47,149 nucleotides of DNA, taken from sequence record MZ501080; one strand, given 5' to 3'. This DNA comes from Escherichia phage JeanPiccard. Numbering within the stretch: the stretch's first letter is position 1; each line of letters opens with the position of its first letter. The position numbers and the translations under genes are program-made. This document shows, piece by piece, positions 6,925 through 44,353 of this stretch. The notes under the pieces were generated by a model. That model saw only the letters and a list, made by a program, of their open reading frames with translations, made no database searches and was not told the DNA's origin.

Positions 6925-7323
6925 ATGAATGATGCAATTTTGGCATTTATGCGATCGCTTGTACCTGCGCTCAAGGCAGTGGATGACGAATCAATTAATG
7001 TGTGGATCGATTTGGCACGTCTCTACGTATGTGAGGGTAAGTTTGGTAATGATGCAGATCGCGCTGTGGGCCTTTATGCACTACACCTGATGCTTGCTGA
7101 TGGCGCATTTAAGGGTGAGAGTGAAGGGCTGGAAACATACAGTCGCAGAATGGCAAGTTACGCACTGAGCGGTGAATTCTCTATCACTTATGATAACCAG
7201 TCGGCAATCCAGGGTGACTTATCATCTTCATCGTGGGGCCGTATGTATAAGGCACTCCTCCGCAAGAAAGGTGGAGGCTTTGGGTTGATTACTTCCGCTC
7301 GTGGCGGTGGGTGCGGTTGCTGA
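6925..7323 (+). CDS. putative head-tail connector / head completion protein
   Basis: position after capsid gene; GGAG RBS before ATG 6925; ATGA-coupled to next gene. Confidence 0.5.
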   Translation: MNDAILAFMRSLVPALKAVDDESINVWIDLARLYVCEGKFGNDADRAVGLYALHLMLADGAFKGESEGLETYSRRMASYALSGEFSITYDNQSAIQGDLSSSSWGRMYKALLRKKGGGFGLITSARGGGCGC

Positions 7324-25083: not shown

Positions 25084-25512
25084 ATGCACGTAATTACTGG
25101 TCAGATTCGCCGCGCTCCGTTCACTAAAGAAGGTCAAAACGCCAATGGTACATGGAAAATGTTTGCTGTTGATTTGAGTGAGAGATACAAGGATAAAGAT
25201 GGGCAGACTCAGTATAGTAACTATCGCGCAGTCTTCTTCGCGAAAGAGTCTATGCTGGATTGGTATAACGAGGCATTTCAAGAAGGTAAAGTTGTTAGCG
25301 TTAGCGCAGATACTCTTTCTGTTGATGTTCGTGATAAAGATGGTAAGACTTACGTAACAATCAACATGAACAACCCTAGACTTGAGTTTAGTCAGCGAGG
25401 TGAAAGTGGTGTTCAGCAGCAACAGCCAAGACAACAGCAGCAACAACCGCAAGCACAACAGCAGAAGCTTCAGCCGCAGCAGCAGCAATTTGATGACTCC
25501 ATTCCATTCTAA
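25084..25512 (+). CDS. single-stranded DNA-binding protein
   Basis: Gln/Pro-rich linker and acidic C-terminal tail DDSIPF (E. coli SSB ends DDDIPF). Confidence 0.75.
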   Translation: MHVITGQIRRAPFTKEGQNANGTWKMFAVDLSERYKDKDGQTQYSNYRAVFFAKESMLDWYNEAFQEGKVVSVSADTLSVDVRDKDGKTYVTINMNNPRLEFSQRGESGVQQQQPRQQQQQPQAQQQKLQPQQQQFDDSIPF

Positions 25513-28138: not shown

Positions 28139-28162
28139 TAAAAAAACCTCCCGAAGGAGGTT
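28139..28162 (-). terminator. rho-independent terminator for primase operon
   Basis: on minus strand: hairpin AACCTCCttcgGGAGGTT followed by T7. Confidence 0.6.
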
Positions 28163-29084
28163 AGTCTAGTAATTCGCTTGCTTTATATATTCTCTTCCTT
28201 ATGCCTGACTTGAAAAAATTATCATCATTTGGGATTACAACATCAAGATTGCGATCATCAGCAACAGCGAGTAAATCAAAAGCGTGGCGAGTACAAGCGA
28301 TGCGTAACTTGTAGTTTCTAAGCGCGTAAGCAACCATTTCCATGTTGTAACTGGAGTGGCAAACAAGCACGCAGCGGTTGCCAGTAGCAATATTGACGCG
28401 AACACCATCAATCCAATTATCGACCAGATAAGCGTACTCATCATCCTTAAAGGAACCAATAACAGAAACAGATTGGCGAGTATAATCTTTTGCAGCATAA
28501 CTAACATTTCCCTCTTCATTGATAAACATTACATTGCACATTTCTTCTGATATACCTTCACTATAAGCCATAAAGCACGGTACTGCGTGGATTAGTTCGC
28601 CTGACTTTGCCCTGCCAACATCAAAACCGAACTCACTATAAATACCCTCGTATGTACTTAGCGGCGTTGATTCTACTCTTTCCGTCCTTTCCATTATCTC
28701 TAGGCATCTTTCGTGGTCAATCTGAGCGCCCATCTTGTAGAGCTGGGTTCTTGATGCTTGCTTATTTGCCTTATTAACAACTTCTACAGGGATAAGGTTT
28801 AGCCACTCACCGAGAACGTCGATACATTCACTGAATGACTGCCCTCTCATTTTTTGAACCCAGACAATTCCATCTCCCGAGCCGCACTGGTTGCAGATAA
28901 TTCCACCGTCACCATCTACACTAACCTTGTTTGTCCACCTTGCCCTATCGTGACCTCCACAATAAATACATGGCTGGTGCTTCTTGGTCTGGAAGAACTT
29001 TGGGTCAGCGCCGCAGATATTGATAAGCGCCTTATCCCACAGGCCGCGCATTCTGGGTAAAACCTCTTTCTTATCGTGGTGCAT
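28161..29084 (-). CDS. putative DNA primase (zinc-ribbon type)
   Basis: CxxC..CxxC zinc ribbon CIYCGGHDRARW...CNQCGSGDG resembling primase-helicase Zn-binding domains; adjacent to helicase. Confidence 0.6.
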   Translation of the reverse strand: MHHDKKEVLPRMRGLWDKALINICGADPKFFQTKKHQPCIYCGGHDRARWTNKVSVDGDGGIICNQCGSGDGIVWVQKMRGQSFSECIDVLGEWLNLIPVEVVNKANKQASRTQLYKMGAQIDHERCLEIMERTERVESTPLSTYEGIYSEFGFDVGRAKSGELIHAVPCFMAYSEGISEEMCNVMFINEEGNVSYAAKDYTRQSVSVIGSFKDDEYAYLVDNWIDGVRVNIATGNRCVLVCHSSYNMEMVAYALRNYKLRIACTRHAFDLLAVADDRNLDVVIPNDDNFFKSGIRKRIYKASELLD

Positions 29085-29142
29085 ATCAGTCTATCTCTTA
29101 ACAAATAAAAAAGGATGTACCGATTATGGCACATCCAATTCT

Positions 29143-29717: not shown

Positions 29718-31712
29718 ATGTTACCTATCGAGAAGCTGGTTGCAAACTTTGATAAAGAAAGAATTAAACAGATTCAGAAAGATTACCAGTTTGGCGAGAT
29801 AACCCCTTACGAGTTCCAGTGCGTTACATTTGATGCAATTGGGAAGGCTATTGGCAAGTATGAGGCCCCATTTATCGCAGATCTTTCTGTGTCTGCTGGT
29901 AAGACAATCATTCTTGCCATGATTGGTAAGCGCATGGAGCAATTGGGATTGCCTTACATGGTTCTATCTCGCCAGTCAGAGATAATCAGCCAGAACTCAG
30001 AGGAACTTCGTAACTTCGGCATCCGTAACAGCGTATATTGCGCCGGCCTTAACGTTAAATCAGTTTATTACCCAACCATAGTTGCTAGTGAGGGCACGGC
30101 AGCCAACGGCTTGTTTAAGGGGCTTGGTGACTACGTCCCTGCAGTTATCGCAATAGACGAATGTCACATGGTCGATCACATGGATATTGTAGAAGCTGAG
30201 GAGAACGAAGAAACATTTGAGCAAATGAGCACAAAGAAAGGAGAAATGGTATTTAAAGATGGCGTTAATACCGGATTGCTTGGCACTGGTCGTGCGCAGT
30301 ACACGCTAATCATCACCGAAATGAAAAGGCGATGCCGCGAGAAGTACGGTCGCGAGCTTAGAATTTTTGGCCTAACTGGCAGCCCGTATCGAAATAACGA
30401 TCACATAGTGGTTAGCAATCCAAATGTTCGTGGATTCTGGCGCAAGACAGTGATTCAGGTGCCAACTAATTACCTTGTTGATTTGGGATTTGTTGTGCCT
30501 ACTGTTTATGGCGAGGTTGGCGATTTGGGTTACGATCTTAGTGAGTTTGTGCCCGATGGGAACGATGGCGTGAAGGACTTTGGCAAGAAAGAAATGGATG
30601 CAATGGAAGAGAAAATCCACCAAAGCCAATCCATGACGCAAAAGATTATGCAATTTGCTGCAAAGTTCATGGAGACTCGTAACTCGGCTCTTGTGACATG
30701 TTCTGGTAAGCGTCACTGCGAGGAAGCGGCAGCGTCGCTTCCTGATGGTGTGACATGGGCTATAGTAACTGACTCTACAGGTGAGAAAAAGCGCCGTGAG
30801 ATTCTGGCTGATGCATATGAAGGTAAGTATAAATTCATATTTCAGATAGGTTGCCTCACAACCGGCGTTAACGTTCCACCATGGGATACATCAATCATTC
30901 TGCGCAAAGTTGGTAGTATCACGCTTCTTATTCAGCTTTTGGGTAGAGGAATGCGAATTCTTAAGAAGAAGCATAAGGAAATGGGAATGGTTAAGGATGA
31001 TCACGTGGTGCTTGACTTTGCTGGTACTCTTGATGACATGGCAGAATTGTACTTTGACCCAATCATAGAAGAAGTTCAGGACCAGAAGTTCAAATCGTCA
31101 CGAAAAAGTGGCGACAATCCAAGGGTATGTCCTGCCTGCGGCTATGAGAACTCTCCTTTTGCTCGTCGCTGCAATAACGTAATTGATGGGAAACGTTGTG
31201 AGCATTTTTTTAAATTTCGCTTGTGCGAAGACATAGAGGACCAGCAGACAAAAGTTACTATTAAGAAAGGTTGTGGTGAGAAGAATGATATTGCCGCTAA
31301 AAACTGCAGGTGCTGTGGCGAGATGCTTATTGACCCTAACGCAAAGTTGTCTGGAAAGATGTATCGACAAGGGGATTGGTTGAGAGTTTACGGATTCAGT
31401 ATTGGGTTAACTAAAAACCAAACCGGAATCGTTGCTCGATATGAAATCATGGCTCACAGCGGGGATAGGTTTGTTGCTTACGAAACTTTCTTTCCAGAGA
31501 GTGATCATCGCGTCTGCTCTGTAAAGTGGAAGGCGTTTTGCCAAACCCACATCGCCAACAAAACAGAAGCATTTCGCATCGGAAGACTTCGAAACACTAA
31601 AATGATTATGACCAATGCAAGTCAATTCCGTGAACCTATGAGAGTGACGCACAGAAAAAACCAGAAAGGTCAGGATATTATCGCAAATAAATCTTTTACT
31701 ATGGAGGATTGA
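29718..31712 (+). CDS. ATP-dependent DNA helicase (SF2-like) with C-terminal zinc-ribbon region
   Basis: Walker A SAGKT, Walker B/DExH-like IDECH; C-terminal CPACG..C..CRCCG cysteine clusters. Confidence 0.75.
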   Translation: MLPIEKLVANFDKERIKQIQKDYQFGEITPYEFQCVTFDAIGKAIGKYEAPFIADLSVSAGKTIILAMIGKRMEQLGLPYMVLSRQSEIISQNSEELRNFGIRNSVYCAGLNVKSVYYPTIVASEGTAANGLFKGLGDYVPAVIAIDECHMVDHMDIVEAEENEETFEQMSTKKGEMVFKDGVNTGLLGTGRAQYTLIITEMKRRCREKYGRELRIFGLTGSPYRNNDHIVVSNPNVRGFWRKTVIQVPTNYLVDLGFVVPTVYGEVGDLGYDLSEFVPDGNDGVKDFGKKEMDAMEEKIHQSQSMTQKIMQFAAKFMETRNSALVTCSGKRHCEEAAASLPDGVTWAIVTDSTGEKKRREILADAYEGKYKFIFQIGCLTTGVNVPPWDTSIILRKVGSITLLIQLLGRGMRILKKKHKEMGMVKDDHVVLDFAGTLDDMAELYFDPIIEEVQDQKFKSSRKSGDNPRVCPACGYENSPFARRCNNVIDGKRCEHFFKFRLCEDIEDQQTKVTIKKGCGEKNDIAAKNCRCCGEMLIDPNAKLSGKMYRQGDWLRVYGFSIGLTKNQTGIVARYEIMAHSGDRFVAYETFFPESDHRVCSVKWKAFCQTHIANKTEAFRIGRLRNTKMIMTNASQFREPMRVTHRKNQKGQDIIANKSFTMED

Positions 31713-31713
31713 T

Positions 31714-32133
31714 ATGAAAATTACAGATAAGGTTGATTACATTGAGTTTTACCCAGGCCCTGTTAATTCATGCCCTAAAGAGGATGACGAACAAATCTTT
31801 TGCTCTGATTGGGTTAAGTATAACTATCCAGACATGGTGTTTTTCCACTGCGTGAATGAGGGTAAGAAAACAATTGGACAAGCAAGAAAAGACCAGGCTA
31901 AGGGTTTATTGAAGGGCGTATCTGACTGCATGTTTCTGATACCTGAATCTATCCGAGGCAAATACCCTTTCGGAGCCATAGAGCTAAAGAGGGCAGGAAA
32001 AACACAGGCAAGCCCAGTCAGTGACGAACAGAAGTCCTTCCTGAAAAGCGTAAGAGAATCAGGCGGCTTCGCGGCTGTAGCCTATGGTCGCGAGGGTTTT
32101 CTGGCAGCATTCAAAGAAATGATTTCAAAATAG
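31714..32133 (+). CDS. VRR-NUC domain nuclease
   Basis: 139 aa; segment GAIELKRAGKTQASPVSDEQKSFLKSV typical of VRR-NUC proteins; coupled to helicase. Confidence 0.6.
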   Translation: MKITDKVDYIEFYPGPVNSCPKEDDEQIFCSDWVKYNYPDMVFFHCVNEGKKTIGQARKDQAKGLLKGVSDCMFLIPESIRGKYPFGAIELKRAGKTQASPVSDEQKSFLKSVRESGGFAAVAYGREGFLAAFKEMISK

Positions 32134-34067: not shown

Positions 34068-35198
34068 ATGGCAACCGCAAAAATCACCAACGAACAATTG
34101 CGCGAAGAGTTAGCAAATGGCATGACCAACAAGGCAATCGCAGAGAAGTACGGAATGAACATTCGCAACGTTGAATTGCGTCGCAGTAAATTAGCTAAAC
34201 AAGGCGAAGGGCATGGTCGCGATGTAAGCAACTTAATCCCTCAGGGCTATGCAGTTAAAGGCGTCTCCAGCTTAATTGGTGCTGATGGCGAGATTAAGCA
34301 ACAGTGGGTTAAATCAGATATCGACAAGGAGAAGCAAGAAGAGATGATGCTTCAGGCAATTCAGGCCCTAACTGATGAGTTGCCGCGTGAGAAAGCTAAA
34401 GCTTTAAGGGTTGGTTTATGGGAAGATACTTTAAGCCTTTACCCCGTGTTCGACCTCCACATTGGAGCAATGGCTCATCATGCTGAGTGTGGTGAGAACT
34501 ATAGTACTGAAATCGCTGAGAGAGTTCTTAATGATTACTTTGATTACGCGGTTGCAAAGGCCCCCAACTCCAAGAAAGCTGTATTGCTGATTGGGGGTGA
34601 CTTCCTTCACTCTGACGGAATGGAAGCGGTAACACCAACCAGTCGTCATGTTCTTGATCAAGATAGCCGTTATCACAAACTTGTTTACGTAGCAGTGCGA
34701 GCGACACGTCGAGCAATTAGCCGTATGCTTGATAAGCACGCCGAGGTTGAGGTTCAGATTATTCCAGGTAACCACGATCTCTCAGGTATGATTTGGCTTC
34801 GTGCTGCAATGGCAGCTTTCTATATGGATGAGCCTCGAGTTAATGTTGATGCGTCCCCCGCTGCGCTTCACGTAACGCAATTTGGGAAGACGCTGCTTGG
34901 TTACTGCCATGGGCACGAACTCAAAAAGCCTGATACCCGACTATCAGCACTGGCTCGTGACCATCGCAAAGCATTTGGTGAATCAGAGTATGTTTACACC
35001 CATTCAGGCCACTATCACCATCAAACTATTACGGAAGGAAATCTGGGTATTGATGAATCACACGGCCAGCTTGGAGCGAAAGATGCGTACAGTGCTAACG
35101 GAGGTTATCGCTCTTACCGACAGGCTTCGGTGATAATTTATAGTCCTGAGTTTGGTGAGATTGGACGATTTACTTGCCGCCCGGAAATGTTTAGTTAA
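34068..35198 (+). CDS. calcineurin-like metallophosphoesterase with N-terminal HTH-like domain
   Basis: phosphoesterase motifs GDFLHSD and GNHD plus His-rich C-terminal HSGHYHH; N-terminal GMTNKAIAEKYGMNIRNV resembles an HTH. Confidence 0.65.
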   Translation: MATAKITNEQLREELANGMTNKAIAEKYGMNIRNVELRRSKLAKQGEGHGRDVSNLIPQGYAVKGVSSLIGADGEIKQQWVKSDIDKEKQEEMMLQAIQALTDELPREKAKALRVGLWEDTLSLYPVFDLHIGAMAHHAECGENYSTEIAERVLNDYFDYAVAKAPNSKKAVLLIGGDFLHSDGMEAVTPTSRHVLDQDSRYHKLVYVAVRATRRAISRMLDKHAEVEVQIIPGNHDLSGMIWLRAAMAAFYMDEPRVNVDASPAALHVTQFGKTLLGYCHGHELKKPDTRLSALARDHRKAFGESEYVYTHSGHYHHQTITEGNLGIDESHGQLGAKDAYSANGGYRSYRQASVIIYSPEFGEIGRFTCRPEMFS

Positions 35199-36291: not shown

Positions 36292-36656
36292 TAATGTGCG
36301 TATCTTTATCTGGATGTTCAGCGACTGATGCACTGACCGGATTGATTGGCAGTAAGCCGGAAATTAGTGCGCAGGCTGGTGCAGAGAATAACAAGGTTGG
36401 AGTTGGGTTAACGAATAAGGTTGACTCAAGTAACTCCAGCGAAGCCACTGTGAAAGACTCTAAAGTTGGCTCGCTAGATAGCTCAAGCGGGAAAAAGACT
36501 GCTGACAACTCTATTAAGGCATCTACAATCACCGCGGAAAAGATTGAGATTACCAACAACGAATCATCCGCACTTCCGTGGATTGGAACTGGAGCAATGG
36601 GGTTGCTGGTTCTGATTCTCATGGCATTAATCTTAAGACGTAAAAAAGCCTCCTAA
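36267..36656 (+). CDS. unimolecular spanin (u-spanin, T1 gp11-like)
   Basis: N-terminal lipoprotein signal with lipobox LSGC, Ser/Thr-rich periplasmic region, C-terminal TM GAMGLLVLILMALIL then RRKKAS. Confidence 0.7.
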   Translation: MLKWVAALVMCVSLSGCSATDALTGLIGSKPEISAQAGAENNKVGVGLTNKVDSSNSSEATVKDSKVGSLDSSSGKKTADNSIKASTITAEKIEITNNESSALPWIGTGAMGLLVLILMALILRRKKAS

Positions 36657-36668
36657 TGGAGGCTATAT
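36645..36668. terminator. bidirectional terminator
   Basis: hairpin GCCTCCtaatGGAGGC with flanking A-run and T-rich tail. Confidence 0.5.
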
Positions 36669-36670
36669 TT

Positions 36671-37006
36671 TTAGCTAAATAACTCGTCGTCAGTCATTGT
36701 TCCTATATTCATCATCTCTTTTATGTACTTGCTTTGATACCCGTTAAGCGCCTCGAAGTTAAACTCAAATGGCCTCTTCAAGCTACCCTTGCTAGCAAAC
36801 TCACCGCACTTACCATCAATGTATCCCATGCTAAGCATCTTCGCGCAGAACTCCTTTGAAGCGGCGCTGCAAAATTCTCTGTGAGATAATCCTGCTGCTT
36901 TGCTAAATCTCTCAGAGTCCTTGTGTTGGTAGATGAATCGCGCCAAATGCTGGCGCGTAAAGTATGAATACGACTCACAGAAGCGGTATAAATCCAAAAT
37001 GAACAT
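36671..37006 (-). CDS. hypothetical Cys-rich protein co-transcribed with ATPase
   Basis: 111 aa; four Cys (possible metal site); ATG 4 nt after ATPase stop. Confidence 0.45.
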   Translation of the reverse strand: MFILDLYRFCESYSYFTRQHLARFIYQHKDSERFSKAAGLSHREFCSAASKEFCAKMLSMGYIDGKCGEFASKGSLKRPFEFNFEALNGYQSKYIKEMMNIGTMTDDELFS

Positions 37007-37009
37007 TCA

Positions 37010-38593
37010 TCACCCCAGCAATCTCGGATTAATATAAACTTTATCACCAATCAGGCACGTATAGTTTTTCTCATCAAGCATTGGCAGTAAGTGATCTTTA
37101 ATCTTCGTCATCACCCCAGCCTGAGCCTCGAACGGCTTAACCTTGCGCGCTGCCTCATACAATGAACGAACACCAACAACTCCCTTACCGTTTTTGCCTT
37201 GCTTGATCAGGATATCAATAAGCTTATTCATCTCGGCATTGTCTCCAGCGTGACCCGCAGCGTTGGCAGATGATAGATACGTCTTGCTCAGCTCCTGGAA
37301 CATAATTACTGCCTCTTGCATGGTGTCTAGCTCAATCTCTCTTGACTTCTGTGGACTTCCACCGTTAGGGTTGAACCAGTTACGCACAGTGTGAAGAACC
37401 GCTGCAATCCTGATGGCCTGTTTATCGAACTTCCCCAACGCGCCGCGCAACATTGTGTGGGAATACTTACCGCCGTCAGCAAGGTGAGGTTCCATTTCCT
37501 GACGAGCGCGGTTTAGGTATTTCATTGCTGAATTACTCACTGTCAACTTTACTTCTTGCTCGTTCATTATTTCGTGAACCAATCGGAAGTAGTCAGCCTT
37601 CAACCCGCCATCAATTGGTTCATAAGTCGATTCGCCATTTTCATCAACGAATACACGCTCACCCAGGAATGACTTTTCACGAACCAAAAGGAAACGTTCA
37701 GATACACCGATACCGCGCGCACCAGCATTCATGATTGCGTTAATTGTTTCGTCTTGCGCAATTACAGAGATGCAGCCCATAGCAACGAAGCTCATGTTGT
37801 TCTCTGCGTTCGCACGGGCGATAGATACGTTACCAGCATCCCATGCTTTAAGCACAAGCTCGCTGTTCGTTTTCTTTGAGCCATCGCCATACGTCATGCC
37901 AAGAAGTGAATTCACGCTCGTTGCTTCATCCGAGATTACTGCGAAGTTTCCCTGGCGGTTGTTTATTCGGGCCAAGCCTTCAGGCGTAGTGTCTGATACG
38001 GGGAAAACGATATCGCAAAGTTTCTCGAGCTTCTCCTCTAAATCTTCTTTTTCCTCAAATAGTGAAGCCATCTCTGACGGAGATTTTTCCTGCTTCATCT
38101 CTTTGGATAATGCAGATAGTTTGGCCATGATCTTTTTACGCTCACGCTTTCGCACTTCATTCAGTCGCTCAGTCTCGGCAATCATTGGAGCAATTGAAAG
38201 TGAGTTAATAGCTGATTTACCAGTAGATGGTGGCTGGCTTGTTACGACGTAAAGCGACGTGGGCTGCTGAGTTCCGTGATACTCTACAGTGAATCGACCA
38301 AGCATAGCAGCGGAAATACACCCCAGGAAGTGCATGTAAGCTGAAGATTCAGGGAACTGAACCGAACGAGCAATGTTGGCTGACAGTTTACCAACAACAT
38401 CAATATCATTTCCTAGTGAGATTACAGGATACTTGTCATTGGCAGCGTCAATCTCTACTGGCGCCTTCCAGAATGATTGGGACTGTCGATAGCCATTAGC
38501 ATTGATGGCGACACGCAAAGGCGGGAGGTTGTCTGCGGCAGCGATTGCCATAACCTGTTCAACAGATAGTTTATCTTCGTTGAAATCAAACAT
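37010..38593 (-). CDS. P-loop NTPase (possible SF3-like helicase/ATPase)
   Basis: Walker A TSQPPSTGKS, Walker B FAVISDE; N- and C-terminal regions paralogous to 41779..42306. Confidence 0.65.
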   Translation of the reverse strand: MFDFNEDKLSVEQVMAIAAADNLPPLRVAINANGYRQSQSFWKAPVEIDAANDKYPVISLGNDIDVVGKLSANIARSVQFPESSAYMHFLGCISAAMLGRFTVEYHGTQQPTSLYVVTSQPPSTGKSAINSLSIAPMIAETERLNEVRKRERKKIMAKLSALSKEMKQEKSPSEMASLFEEKEDLEEKLEKLCDIVFPVSDTTPEGLARINNRQGNFAVISDEATSVNSLLGMTYGDGSKKTNSELVLKAWDAGNVSIARANAENNMSFVAMGCISVIAQDETINAIMNAGARGIGVSERFLLVREKSFLGERVFVDENGESTYEPIDGGLKADYFRLVHEIMNEQEVKLTVSNSAMKYLNRARQEMEPHLADGGKYSHTMLRGALGKFDKQAIRIAAVLHTVRNWFNPNGGSPQKSREIELDTMQEAVIMFQELSKTYLSSANAAGHAGDNAEMNKLIDILIKQGKNGKGVVGVRSLYEAARKVKPFEAQAGVMTKIKDHLLPMLDEKNYTCLIGDKVYINPRLLG

Positions 38594-38667
38594 TACTTCT
38601 CTCCGTATTGTTTTTGAGAGGCCATTATATCAACGACCTCTTATAAAGCATTATCAATTTGTGCTAT

Positions 38668-39021
38668 TTACAGGTATTGAGCTTCAAATAAGTAAGTCTG
38701 GCAAAGAGTGTAAAAACCAACGTCCTCGCTGCGGTAAAGCTGCCAGGCATTACCATCTTCATCGTAAATGTAACCGGCAGACTGACCAAGGCCAGCATGA
38801 AGTGCCACCTGATAGCGCTTCCCTTCTTTAAAGTCTTTTTTAACACCTGATTTGTGGTTAACCCTTGTGCAGTAAAGCGTCTTAGTCTTGATGTACTTAC
38901 CGCGTTCTTCAAGGTTAATCCATTTTCCACCTTTCTTGATCTGCTCTACACCATCTTTAACGCGAGCTTTGTAGAGTACGTTTTCTTTGCTGATGAAGTT
39001 TTTAGTCAGTGTAGTAGTCAT
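38668..39021 (-). CDS. hypothetical protein
   Basis: 117 aa basic ORF on minus strand. Confidence 0.45.
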   Translation of the reverse strand: MTTTLTKNFISKENVLYKARVKDGVEQIKKGGKWINLEERGKYIKTKTLYCTRVNHKSGVKKDFKEGKRYQVALHAGLGQSAGYIYDEDGNAWQLYRSEDVGFYTLCQTYLFEAQYL

Positions 39022-41230: not shown

Positions 41231-41779
41231 ATGCAGAAAGTAACACTAGGTGAAGTTATCCGCGAGATGGTTCGTAACGCGATGGCGTCTGATGGTGGTG
41301 AATTCAAAGTTCCGGTTAGCCAGATATTCAAGCTGGTTCGCGGGAAAGAATACCCTGAGATGCGGTATGATGAGGATACCAGTGAGATCCTAAACCTTGC
41401 AGATAGGGCGATGCCGGAACTAAAGAACTCATACATTTATAATACGGTTTCGAGAATGACCGAGCTTCGAGATGCAAACAAGCGAGCGCGCTATAAGTTC
41501 ATCTGGATTGATGAGGATGGCGAGCAGGTAAGCCCTGGTAGCTTCGATGGTGATGGCGCCGATAAATACCTGGTAATATACATTGAGGACGGCGCGCACT
41601 GGACTGGAAGTCGCGAGAAGAAAAAGCAGGAATCGGAGAGGGAGGCAGCAACCATTGAAAGGTTTAAATCTCGATTGCTCAAGCTGTCACCTAGCGTCGC
41701 TGGGCTGGAAGGTGATGAACTTAAGGGTGCTGTTGCAATGATTAATGCTTATCAGGAAATGATTAAGGAAACCAAATAA
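41231..41779 (+). CDS. hypothetical protein
   Basis: 182 aa; ACGAGG RBS; first gene of plus-strand operon leaving control region 2. Confidence 0.5.
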   Translation: MQKVTLGEVIREMVRNAMASDGGEFKVPVSQIFKLVRGKEYPEMRYDEDTSEILNLADRAMPELKNSYIYNTVSRMTELRDANKRARYKFIWIDEDGEQVSPGSFDGDGADKYLVIYIEDGAHWTGSREKKKQESEREAATIERFKSRLLKLSPSVAGLEGDELKGAVAMINAYQEMIKETK

Positions 41780-42306
41780 TGTTTGATTTCAACGAAGAAA
41801 AGCTGACAGATGAGCAGGTCATGAGTATTGCGAAGCAGGATGGGATTCCCCCGCTACGGGTTGCAATCAATGCAAACGGGTATCGTCATGTTCAACACCT
41901 CTGGAGTCATCCTGATGCGTCATCAATCCACAAGGGTGAGGCTGTTGAGGTTCTGCTGACAGCGATAAGGACTGAATCTATAGCTCGCAGGGGAGTTGTT
42001 GGCTTACAGAAGTCTTATGACCTAATTAGGAAGCTAAAGAGGTTTAAAGGTGACAATGACGGGCTAATGGAGAGGATTAAGGACGAAATGATTCCAGAGC
42101 TAGAGAAAGCGAATCTCGTTTGCCTCATTGGAGATAAGATTTATGTCCACCCGGCTATCATTGAGGAGTCCTGGCAACCCAACTTCAAAACTTACGAAGG
42201 TGATCACACTAGTAGACTACCATACCACTTGCGGTACAGTGAGGCGGAGGTGGAAGAGGCTATTGAGTTCTACCGGAAGACTAAATCACTCCTGAATGGC
42301 GAATAG
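41779..42306 (+). CDS. domain-deleted paralog of the P-loop ATPase (N- and C-terminal modules only)
   Basis: MFDFNEEKLTDEQVMSIA..PPLRVAINANGYR and CLIGDKIYVHP match the ends of 37010..38593; no Walker motifs. Confidence 0.55.
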   Translation: MFDFNEEKLTDEQVMSIAKQDGIPPLRVAINANGYRHVQHLWSHPDASSIHKGEAVEVLLTAIRTESIARRGVVGLQKSYDLIRKLKRFKGDNDGLMERIKDEMIPELEKANLVCLIGDKIYVHPAIIEESWQPNFKTYEGDHTSRLPYHLRYSEAEVEEAIEFYRKTKSLLNGE

Positions 42307-42321: not shown

Positions 42322-42376
42322 AATGGATCGGGTAGTCAGCTATGATTACCCTATCAACAACGAAGAGGAAATGAAG

Positions 42377-44299: not shown

Positions 44300-44353
44300 A
44301 ACATTGGGGTAATTTGATATAGTTACCCCATCGAAACGAATGAGGACAAACAG

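What the first reader, a model, noticed from the sequence alone, without database searches (positions are those of the whole stretch)
36671..38593. ATPase plus Cys-rich partner operon of unknown role next to the lysis cassette
A 527-aa protein with Walker A TSQPPSTGKS and Walker B FAVISDE is translationally coupled to a 111-aa protein with four cysteines. The P-loop context resembles SF3-type helicase motifs (GPPxTGKS-like), yet the genome also has a separate primase and SF2 helicase. Function is therefore unclear: second replicative helicase, helicase loader, or a DNA-processing or defence/anti-defence ATPase.
Basis: partly seen in the sequence, partly recalled or inferred. Interest (0 to 1): 0.6.

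Follow-up and report, generated by a model that had tools for sequence, protein, structure and literature searches.

The report
T1-like phage MCM-like replicative helicase
The 527-aa ATPase is the DUF3987-family, MCM-like DNA helicase that all T1-like coliphages carry (already labelled 'DNA helicase' in near-identical database records), followed by a small, lineage-specific partner protein whose role is still unknown; it is an ordinary replication gene, not a new system.

Summary
The two ORFs, the motifs, the tight junction and the position beside the lysis cassette are all real. The window is a T1-like siphophage (Drexlerviridae, Rtp/Veterinaerplatzvirus group). The 527-aa protein is a clear DUF3987 (PF13148) protein, phrog_2373 'DNA helicase', and 99% identical to proteins already annotated as DNA helicase. 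A confident AlphaFold model (pLDDT 89) has MCM subunits as its best structural matches, with SF3 helicases far lower. It also has a C-terminal winged helix. It is therefore SF6/MCM-like, not SF3. In more distant relatives the gene heads a module of DUF3987, DnaG-type primase, SF2 helicase, exonuclease and SSB. The window's 'other' helicase is RadD-like, a repair type. The literature predicts DUF3987 proteins to be replicative helicases, and one member has been shown to unwind DNA 5'→3'. The most likely role is the phage fork helicase, working with the phage primase and host Pol III. The 111-aa partner (phrog_2794) occurs only in Drexlerviridae and always lies directly downstream. Only one of its four cysteines is conserved, so it is not a zinc protein. 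An invariant DDELF motif is its most conserved feature. Its function remains an inference. No defence or anti-defence signal was found. Low novelty.

The parts
37010..38593 (-). DUF3987-family, MCM-like (SF6 AAA+) DNA helicase gene, 527 aa, 58 kDa
38354..38593 (-). N-terminal small helical domain (aa 1-80). Its first 45 aa are duplicated in the truncated paralogue.
   Evidence: AF2 secondary structure H11-21, H25-33, H36-41, H66-78. 69% identity to ORF 41779..42306.
37304..38353 (-). AAA+ ATPase core (aa 81-430) matching the DUF3987 profile
38213..38236 (-). Walker A QPPSTGKS
   Evidence: Q120, P121, P122, G125 and K126 are invariant in 46 homologues down to 35% identity. Coordinates checked.
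38021..38218 (-). Long helical hairpin (aa 126-191, K/E-rich) between the P-loop helix and Walker B
   Evidence: AF2 helices 126-166 and 172-191. The segment is present in all aligned homologues.
37925..37945 (-). Walker B FAVISDE (catalytic E223 invariant; D222 is Ala in some homologues)
   Evidence: Alignments A2 and A3. Coordinates checked.
37691..37702 (-). SERF motif, candidate arginine finger (E299 and R300 invariant), in the position of the MCM 'SRF' motif
   Evidence: Invariant columns in A3. It lies in the loop before strand 301-305 in the model. Equivalence to the MCM arginine finger is inferred and was not tested residue by residue.
37418..37450 (-). LRGALGKFDKQ motif (R383, G384, G387, K388 and D390 invariant), candidate sensor 2 in the lid domain
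   Evidence: The functional assignment is inferred.
37013..37255 (-). C-terminal winged-helix domain (aa 447-527)
37004..37012 (-). Gene junction TGA TGA ATG (tandem stops, then the partner's start)
36671..37006 (-). 111-aa partner protein (phrog_2794, function unknown), restricted to Drexlerviridae
   Evidence: 834 phage records. Only 22 representatives at 50% identity among 1.84 billion proteins. It lies directly downstream of the helicase in 8 of 8 loci.
36677..36691 (-). Invariant acidic-aromatic DDELF motif of the partner
   Evidence: D106, D107, E108, L109 and F110 are invariant in A1. Related forms (DSDLF, DDEFF, DDEIF, DSALF) occur in the most distant members.
36647..36664 (.). Bidirectional intrinsic-terminator hairpin shared by the helicase-partner unit and the convergent lysis cassette
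   Evidence: This is a consensus scan only.
38618..38665 (-). Upstream control region with three elements: the family-wide repeat ATAGCACAAATTGATAA (38651..38665); an extended -10 TGATATAAT (38624..38632); and a 6-bp inverted repeat (38618..38640) that holds the -10 in its loop
   Evidence: The repeat was described for TLS in PMC11447400. Promoter function is inferred.
28161..29084 (-). DnaG-type primase (Zn ribbon), presumed working partner of the helicase
   Evidence: PF08273. phrog_510. It lies adjacent to the DUF3987 gene in relatives.
41779..42306 (+). Truncated paralogue of the helicase (175 aa). It joins the helicase N-terminal 45 aa directly to the C-terminal winged helix, with no ATPase core.
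   Evidence: phrog_7327.

Best explanation
The 527-aa protein is the phage's own ring-type replicative (fork) helicase. It is a DUF3987-family, MCM-like AAA+ (superfamily 6) ATPase with a small N-terminal helical domain, an ATPase core and a C-terminal winged helix. T1-like phages encode no DNA polymerase. The proposed mechanism, which is inferred, is as follows. The helicase oligomerises on phage DNA and unwinds it using ATP, through Walker A K126, Walker B E223 and a trans-acting R300. It cooperates with the phage DnaG-type primase and the phage SSB, whose tail resembles the host SSB tail, so that host Pol III can copy the genome. The RadD-like SF2 helicase and the VRR-NUC nuclease would serve recombination and repair instead. 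The 111-aa downstream protein is made from the same transcript in near-stoichiometric amounts. It is most likely an accessory subunit of the helicase, either a loader or an adaptor, that docks through its invariant DDELF motif. Its target is unknown. What is shown: family membership, fold class, motif conservation and gene linkage. What is inferred: hexamer formation, polarity, the replicative role in this phage, and everything about the partner's function.
Against: No member from a T1-like phage has been tested biochemically or genetically. In this phage family the gene lies about 8 kb from the primase, beside the lysis genes, rather than inside the replication module. The reported polarity of AgaPH (5'→3') is opposite to that of MCM, so mechanistic transfer from MCM is uncertain. 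No MCM-type N-terminal OB/Zn domain is present. For the partner: there is no homology to any known loader or adaptor and no structure prediction was possible. It is also absent from more distant phages that carry a related helicase, so it cannot be a universal requirement of these helicases.
Confidence: 0.7

Rival explanations
1. The DUF3987 protein is not the fork helicase but an initiator or origin-melting or auxiliary helicase. It would use its winged helix to bind DNA, while fork progression relies on host DnaB or on the phage SF2 helicase.
For: The C-terminal winged helix and the N-terminal domain could be DNA- or protein-recognition modules. The TLS annotation paper assigns the replication role to the primase plus the SF2 helicase. 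The gene is separated from the primase in Drexlerviridae. The existence of a truncated N-terminus plus winged-helix paralogue recalls regulators of origin-binding proteins.
Against: MCM-like AAA+ rings are translocases. One DUF3987 member has been shown to unwind forked DNA. The SF2 helicase is RadD-like, a repair type, and sits next to a VRR-NUC nuclease. No DnaB loader (lambda P or DnaC-like) was found among the genes scanned.
Confidence: 0.2
2. The protein is an SF3 (viral D5/E1/Rep-type) helicase, as the first reader suggested from the P-loop context.
For: The P-loop QPPSTGKS looks like GPPNTGKS of SF3 helicases (direct reading of the sequence). SF3 and SF6 are both ASCE/AAA+-like rings.
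Confidence: 0.03
3. The pair is a defence, anti-defence or host-takeover module and not a replication function.
Against: There is no meaningful PADLOC hit; the only match is a JetC coiled-coil match at E 0.011. The gene is core to 922 phage genomes and lies within the replication and recombination module in relatives. It is strongly conserved, at 66-99% identity across the family.
Confidence: 0.03
4. The 111-aa protein is functionally independent of the helicase, for example a small DNA-binding regulator or a host-protein binder, and only shares its transcript.
For: It is absent from related phages that have a similar helicase. It evolves faster than the helicase (about 59% against about 72% identity in the same phage groups). 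JulesPiccard has a 95-nt gap between the two genes. No similarity to the helicase or to known loaders was found.
Against: It is always the next gene after the helicase, usually with a 1-3 nt spacer or an overlap, across subfamilies.
Confidence: 0.3

Closest known systems
AgaPH (PriCT-DUF3987 helicase of a pAgo-carrying mobile element, Seonamhaeicola; PMC11724360)
   Same: It has the same Pfam family core (DUF3987) with Walker A and B and a small C-terminal domain. It forms an oligomer, shows ATP/dATP-dependent 5'→3' unwinding of forked DNA, and works with a separately encoded primase.
   Different: AgaPH has an N-terminal PriCT domain and pairs with an AEP PrimPol. The phage protein has a different, short helical N-terminal domain and a long helical-hairpin insertion, and the phage primase is DnaG-type. 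Activity of the phage protein is untested.
Phage DUF3987 / SF6 replicative helicases as defined by Kazlauskas, Krupovic and Venclovas 2016 (e.g. Mycobacterium phage Corndog; N4 dns)
   Same: MCM-like AAA+ core plus a C-terminal winged helix, association with primases, and occurrence in phages that rely partly on host replication proteins.
   Different: In N4 dns and many BFVD hits the helicase is fused to a primase. Here it is a stand-alone protein, and in Drexlerviridae it is not even adjacent to the primase.
Archaeal/eukaryotic MCM (e.g. 3f8t, MCM2-7)
   Different: Identity is only 12-18%, there is no Pfam MCM hit, and there is no N-terminal OB-fold/Zn domain. The phage protein has an extra helical hairpin after the P-loop helix. 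MCM moves 3'→5', whereas the one tested DUF3987 helicase moves 5'→3'.
SCCmec Cch (DUF927, MCM-like self-loading helicase; 5dgk)
   Different: It belongs to a different Pfam family (DUF927) and is a weaker structural match than MCM itself.
E. coli CP4-57 prophage YfjI (source of the 'yfiJ/YfjI' label in TLS and Salmonella phage records)
   Same: It is the DUF3987 namesake protein used in older annotations.
   Different: It is uncharacterised, and its relationship here was not tested beyond shared Pfam family membership.
Small phage helicase loaders and adaptors (SPP1 G39P, T4 gp59, lambda P), as an analogy for the 111-aa partner
   Same: They are small proteins encoded next to the replicative helicase gene. 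A folded N-terminal part plus a short conserved acidic or hydrophobic docking element is a common design.
   Different: There is no detectable sequence similarity. Loader genes usually precede the helicase gene, but here the partner follows it. Function is untested.

Membership tests
DUF3987 (PF13148) helicases | Match to the Pfam profile above the gathering score over most of the profile | tested here: met
   142.4 bits against a cutoff of 27. Profile positions 3-349 of 364 are covered by residues 81-430. All 120 listed homologues carry PF13148.
DUF3987 (PF13148) helicases | [quoted passage not shown] | tested here: met
   QPPSxGKS and hhhhS(D/A)E, with K126 and E223 invariant in 46 sequences down to 35% identity.
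DUF3987 (PF13148) helicases | [quoted passage not shown] | tested here: met
DUF3987 (PF13148) helicases | Typical (not strictly defining) link to a primase, either fused or encoded adjacently | tested here: inconclusive
   The window does not meet this: the primase gene lies about 8 kb away on the same strand. Six more distant relatives do meet it, with the primase 0-2 genes downstream. Fusions are seen among the BFVD hits.
DUF3987 (PF13148) helicases | ATP-dependent DNA unwinding and oligomerisation | not testable with these tools
   Shown only for AgaPH (PMC11724360).
SF6 / MCM-like AAA+ fold class | ATPase core structurally closest to MCM-clade AAA+ proteins | tested here: met
SF6 / MCM-like AAA+ fold class | Trans-acting arginine finger in an SRF-type motif, and a pre-sensor-1 beta-hairpin | tested here: inconclusive
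   SERF with invariant R300 precedes strand 301-305, and hairpin strands 255-258 and 267-270 precede strand 273-279. No residue-level superposition was available.
MCM family proper (PF00493 with N-terminal OB/Zn domain) | Pfam MCM match and an N-terminal OB-fold/zinc domain | tested here: not met
   No MCM hit at E<=1. The N-terminal 80 residues form a small helical domain. Identity to MCMs is 12-18%.
SF3 helicases (D5/E1/Rep/P4-alpha type) | SF3 fold and family profiles | tested here: not met
Known anti-phage defence system proteins (PADLOC-DB) | Match to a defence-system profile | tested here: not met
   There is only a coiled-coil match to JetC at E 0.011 over residues 138-197, and nothing for the partner.
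Zinc-binding Cys4 small proteins (implied by 'Cys-rich partner') | Four conserved cysteines, usually as CxxC pairs | tested here: not met
   Only C10 is nearly invariant. C46 is Ala in most homologues, C54 is Leu in some, and C67 is variable. There is no CxxC.
YdbL (label carried by the partner in some phage records) | Match to the YdbL/DUF1318 profile | tested here: not met
   No member of the 13-sequence alignment matched any such Pfam family, even at E<=10. The only Pfam matches were two unrelated single-member hits, Pcf11_C and DUF6487.
Known helicase loaders (DnaC/IstB, lambda P, T4 gp59, SPP1 G39P), considered for the partner | Sequence or fold similarity to a loader family | tested here: not met
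   There are no Pfam, NCBIfam or PDB-sequence hits.

The most novel reading that the evidence does not exclude
The 111-aa protein (phrog_2794) would be a previously unrecognised kind of helicase accessory factor. It would couple an MCM-like viral helicase to the bacterial replisome, or load it, through its invariant DDELF peptide. The truncated helicase paralogue (N-terminal 45 aa plus winged helix, 41779..42306) would act as a competitor or regulator of the same interactions. Together these would make Drexlerviridae a tractable E. coli model for how an archaeal/eukaryotic-type helicase is made to work with Pol III.
Probability: 0.2. Interest if true: 0.55.

Novelty: already known. Interest (0 to 1): 0.2.

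Why it matters
The result settles the annotation. T1-like phages carry an MCM-like (SF6) helicase, not an SF3 helicase or a mystery ATPase. This protein, rather than the RadD-like SF2 helicase usually credited in genome papers, is the best candidate for their fork helicase. These phages have no polymerase and grow on E. coli K-12. They would therefore be a convenient system for asking how an MCM-type ring helicase is loaded and coupled to a bacterial DnaG-type primase and to Pol III. The uncharacterised partner and the truncated paralogue would be the obvious first handles. None of this is a new kind of system.

Tried and rejected
- **Single-sequence AlphaFold of the helicase.** The model was unusable (pLDDT 38.8). 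It was replaced by a run on a 46-sequence alignment.
- **Sequence searches of the PDB with the helicase.** Neither the protein nor its profile found a homologue, so no DUF3987 structure has been solved.
- **AFDB50 fold library.** It was not available.
- **Partner homology searches.** Pfam, NCBIfam and PADLOC gave no hits, and PHROGs gave only the function-unknown family phrog_2794. A scan of all 13 members at E<=10 found nothing consistent. A PDB profile search found only noise. HHalign against the helicase alignment gave probability 0.2%. An exhaustive HMMER search of 1.84 billion representatives returned only 22 hits. The full-length ones examined are clear homologues, and their provenance could not be checked.
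- **Analogous partner in distant relatives.** The small ORFs flanking the helicase in L005, L006, L007, L009 and phage Sabo were translated. They are unrelated to the partner, and one is a Cro/YdaS-like HTH. An HMM search of all fetched loci found the partner only in Drexlerviridae.
- **Apparent disruption of the partner gene in RobRod40 and BEK2.** The records show split small CDSs, but this is an annotation artefact. Both encode an intact 111-aa ORF, with a GTG start in RobRod40.
- **Defence-trigger idea.** The SECphi27 128-aa Mokosh trigger turned out to be the gene upstream of the helicase, not the partner.
- **Supplement of Kazlauskas 2016.** It was not held, so I could not check how T1 was classified there.
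- **Other literature.** No experimental paper on the T1-like helicase or the partner was found.

Full report
**Observation**

The minus strand carries a 527-aa ORF (37010..38593) and a 111-aa ORF (36671..37006). The quoted motifs are present: QPPSTGKS at 38213..38236 and FAVISDE at 37925..37945. The junction reads CTG GGG TGA TGA ATG. That is two in-frame stop codons followed at once by the partner's start, with a GGGGTGA Shine-Dalgarno-like run just upstream. The pair is convergent with the holin/endolysin/u-spanin cassette on the plus strand. It ends at a hairpin that scores as a terminator on both strands (36647..36664). The partner has four cysteines.

**What the window is**

Megablast and tblastn place the window in the T1-like siphophages (Drexlerviridae, Braunvirinae). 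Relatives include Rtp, JulesPiccard, ZL19 and Veterinaerplatzvirus. The helicase is 97-99% identical to proteins in several deposited phages, where RefSeq calls it 'DNA helicase', 'putative helicase' or 'DUF3987 domain-containing protein'. It occurs in 922 phage records.

**Family and fold of the 527-aa protein**

- Pfam gives DUF3987 (PF13148) at 142 bits against a cutoff of 27, over residues 81-430.
- PHROGs gives phrog_2373 'DNA helicase' at E 6.6e-259, with a second, C-terminal match (438-526) to phrog_7327.
- NCBIfam gives nothing meaningful, and PADLOC gives only a coiled-coil match at E 0.011.
- No solved structure is detectable by sequence.
- A single-sequence AlphaFold run failed. A run on a 46-sequence alignment spanning 35-90% identity gave pLDDT 89.2 and pTM 0.87.
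- The C-terminal 80 residues match winged-helix domains of ORC/Cdc6, Stn1 and kleisins.
- Foldseek agreed, with MCM subunits at ranks 1-50.
- In the viral structure library the matches are DUF3987 proteins, many of them fused to AEP or Toprim primases.

Several motifs are invariant across homologues: the Walker A lysine, the Walker B glutamate, a SERF motif (R300) before strand 301-305, and LRGxxGKxDK in the lid. The SERF motif sits where AAA+/MCM proteins carry the arginine finger. That assignment is an inference from position, not a residue-level superposition.

Features that differ from MCM are the short helical N-terminal domain in place of an OB/Zn domain, and a 65-residue K/E-rich helical hairpin after the P-loop helix.

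**Published knowledge of the family**

Kazlauskas et al. (PMC4889955) classed phage DUF3987 proteins as divergent SF6 helicases distantly related to MCM. They noted a C-terminal wHTH and frequent fusion or adjacency to primases. They predicted a replicative role and noted that the N4 dns protein is essential. A 2025 paper (PMC11724360) showed that a PriCT-DUF3987 protein forms an oligomer, binds its PrimPol and unwinds 5'-tailed and forked DNA. That activity depends on the Walker A and B motifs and has 5'→3' polarity. I found no experimental work on the T1-like member. The TLS re-annotation paper credits the primase and the SF2 helicase with replication, and confirms that T1 and TLS have no polymerase gene.

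**Context evidence for a replicative role**

Six more distant relatives of the helicase (35-43% identity) were examined. Five are metagenomic loci and one is the cultured Pseudoalteromonas phage XCL1123. In these the gene sits at the head of a co-directional module: DUF3987, DnaG-type primase, SF2 helicase, DUF3799 exonuclease, ERF or AAA_24, and SSB. In L005 no primase was called.

The window has the same set of genes, but the DUF3987 gene has been displaced to the far side of the lysis cassette. The window's SF2 helicase is most similar to the E. coli repair helicase RadD (E 1.7e-33). It is followed by a VRR-NUC nuclease, which points to recombination or repair rather than fork unwinding. 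The phage SSB ends in FDDSIPF, which resembles the E. coli SSB tail DDDIPF (from established knowledge). This fits a replisome assembled from host parts. I therefore rate 'phage fork helicase working with the phage primase and host Pol III' as the best explanation, at about 0.7. The main rival, at about 0.2, is that it acts mainly as an initiator or auxiliary helicase.

**The 111-aa partner**

- It belongs to phrog_2794, function unknown.
- It has no Pfam, NCBIfam, PADLOC or PDB relatives and no similarity to the helicase.
- It is found in 834 phage records, and those listed are T1-like enterobacterial phages; the four examined in detail are all classified as Drexlerviridae. Only 22 representative clusters match among 1.84 billion proteins.
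- In all eight loci examined it is the gene directly after the helicase. In seven the junction is a 1-3 nt spacer or an overlap.
- Only C10 of the four cysteines is conserved, so it is not a Cys4 metal-binding protein.
- The most conserved features are SKEF, GY, RPFxF and an invariant DDELF near the C-terminus. Related forms occur in the most distant members.
- It is absent from the distant phages that carry a related helicase.

My reading is an accessory subunit, either a loader or an adaptor, that docks through DDELF. This is an inference from gene linkage and motif conservation only. The resemblance of DDELF to SSB-tail or clamp-binding peptides is a lead from memory, not a test.

**Upstream control region**

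About 72 nt before the helicase ATG lies ATAGCACAAATTGATAA. The motif AGCAC-N-AAWWG-N-TAA occurs 16 times in the window against 0.3 expected, almost always at gene boundaries and in most cases in the direction of the adjacent downstream gene. This repeat has already been described for TLS, T1 and Rtp, with unknown function (PMC11447400). Downstream of it is an extended -10 (TGATATAAT). This element sits in the loop of a 6-7 bp inverted repeat. The stem sequence differs between phages while complementarity is kept, with perfect stems in JulesPiccard, AugustePiccard, Ec_L1, Tls and SECphi27 and one G·T or T-T mismatch in the window, RobRod40 and BEK2. This is read directly from the sequences. 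The primase gene has the same arrangement.

**Other observations**

- The gene just upstream of the helicase (38668..39021) is 46% identical (E 1e-24) to the SECphi27 128-aa protein identified as the trigger of Mokosh type I.
- ORF 41779..42306 is a truncated paralogue of the helicase. Residues 1-45 (69% identity) are joined directly to the winged helix (36% identity), with no ATPase core. It belongs to phrog_7327 and is seen mainly in the Rtp-like group.

**Verdict**

The finding is real but ordinary. It is a well-conserved replication gene that is already catalogued, and it belongs to a published helicase family. The SF3 and defence readings are not supported. The open questions are the role of the partner and of the truncated paralogue.

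Noticed in passing
window 38668..39021 (-): The 117-aa gene immediately upstream of the helicase (phrog_2684) is a homologue of SECphi27 gp13 (46% identity over 94 aa, E 1e-24). Stokar-Avihail et al. identified that 128-aa protein as the trigger of the Mokosh type I defence system (escape mutation E7fs at 6995). In SECphi27 the gene order is trigger, small ORF, DUF3987 helicase, partner.
   Followed up: partly
window 41779..42306 (+): This ORF is a truncated paralogue of the helicase (175 aa, phrog_7327, function unknown). Helicase residues 1-45 (69% identity) are fused directly to the C-terminal winged helix (residues 448-526, 36% identity), followed by a 47-aa unique tail. The whole ATPase core is missing. 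It diverges quickly between phages whose helicases are 97-98% identical (47-67% identity). It appears limited to the Rtp-like/Braunvirinae group. It may be a regulator or competitor of helicase interactions.
   Followed up: partly
window 506, 13233, 20976, 21724, 28099, 29164, 32132, 32458, 33948, 38665, 39448, 42305, 42832, 43649, 44282, 45211 (the coordinate of the first base, the 5' A, of each AGCAC… pattern match, read on the strand that carries it): The intergenic repeat ATAGCAC-N3-TTGCTAAA occurs 16 times against 0.3 expected, almost always at gene boundaries and in most cases oriented with the adjacent downstream gene. It was already reported for TLS, T1 and Rtp with unknown function (PMC11447400). 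A -10-like hexamer lies about 20-22 nt downstream of the TTGCTA, which is too far for a standard -35/-10 pair.
   Followed up: partly
window 38618..38640 (-); also 29105..29135 (-) before the primase gene, and about 42325..42350, 44300..44330 (+): In several copies of that repeat unit the -10-like hexamer sits in the loop of a 5-9 bp inverted repeat. Upstream of the helicase the stem sequence changes between phages while pairing is kept: GAGGTC/GGCCTC, GCGGCC/GGCCGC, GCGGTC/GACCGC, TTGCCG/CGGCAA, GGGCCG/CGGCCC and GGCGGTG/CACCGCC. I did not find this hairpin-enclosed -10 mentioned in the passages of the TLS paper that I read. Its role is unknown; it could be an operator, a DNA hairpin, or an RNA element in read-through transcripts.
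   Followed up: partly
window 25084..25512 (+): The phage SSB has a Gln-rich linker and ends in ...QQQFDDSIPF. This closely resembles the E. coli SSB C-terminal tail (DDDIPF) and suggests that it plugs into the host SSB interaction network.
   Followed up: no
window 29718..31712 (+) and 31714..32133 (+): The 'other' helicase is most similar to the E. coli repair helicase RadD (E 1.7e-33 to PDB 6jde). A VRR-NUC nuclease gene follows it directly. This looks like a recombination and repair pair rather than a fork helicase.
   Followed up: partly
window 34068..35198 (+): This 376-aa protein has a calcineurin-like metallophosphoesterase core (phrog_704 'DNA repair exonuclease', weak Pfam Metallophos) and an N-terminal region of about 60 aa. 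Curated relatives annotate it only as 'hypothetical'.
   Followed up: no
L013 5671..6006 (RobRod40, OR896835.1) and L014 5961..6296 (BEK2, MN158206.1): The deposited annotations split or miss the partner gene and show small CDSs in other frames. Both genomes in fact encode an intact 111-aa orthologue, with a GTG start in RobRod40.
   Followed up: yes
alignment A2/A3, helicase residue 222: The Walker B aspartate is replaced by alanine (ISAEA) in several otherwise well-conserved homologues, while the following glutamate is invariant.
   Followed up: no
window 36647..36664: The bidirectional terminator hairpin overlaps the last codons of the u-spanin gene (stop at 36654..36656). The lysis cassette and the helicase-partner unit therefore share one hairpin.
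   Followed up: no
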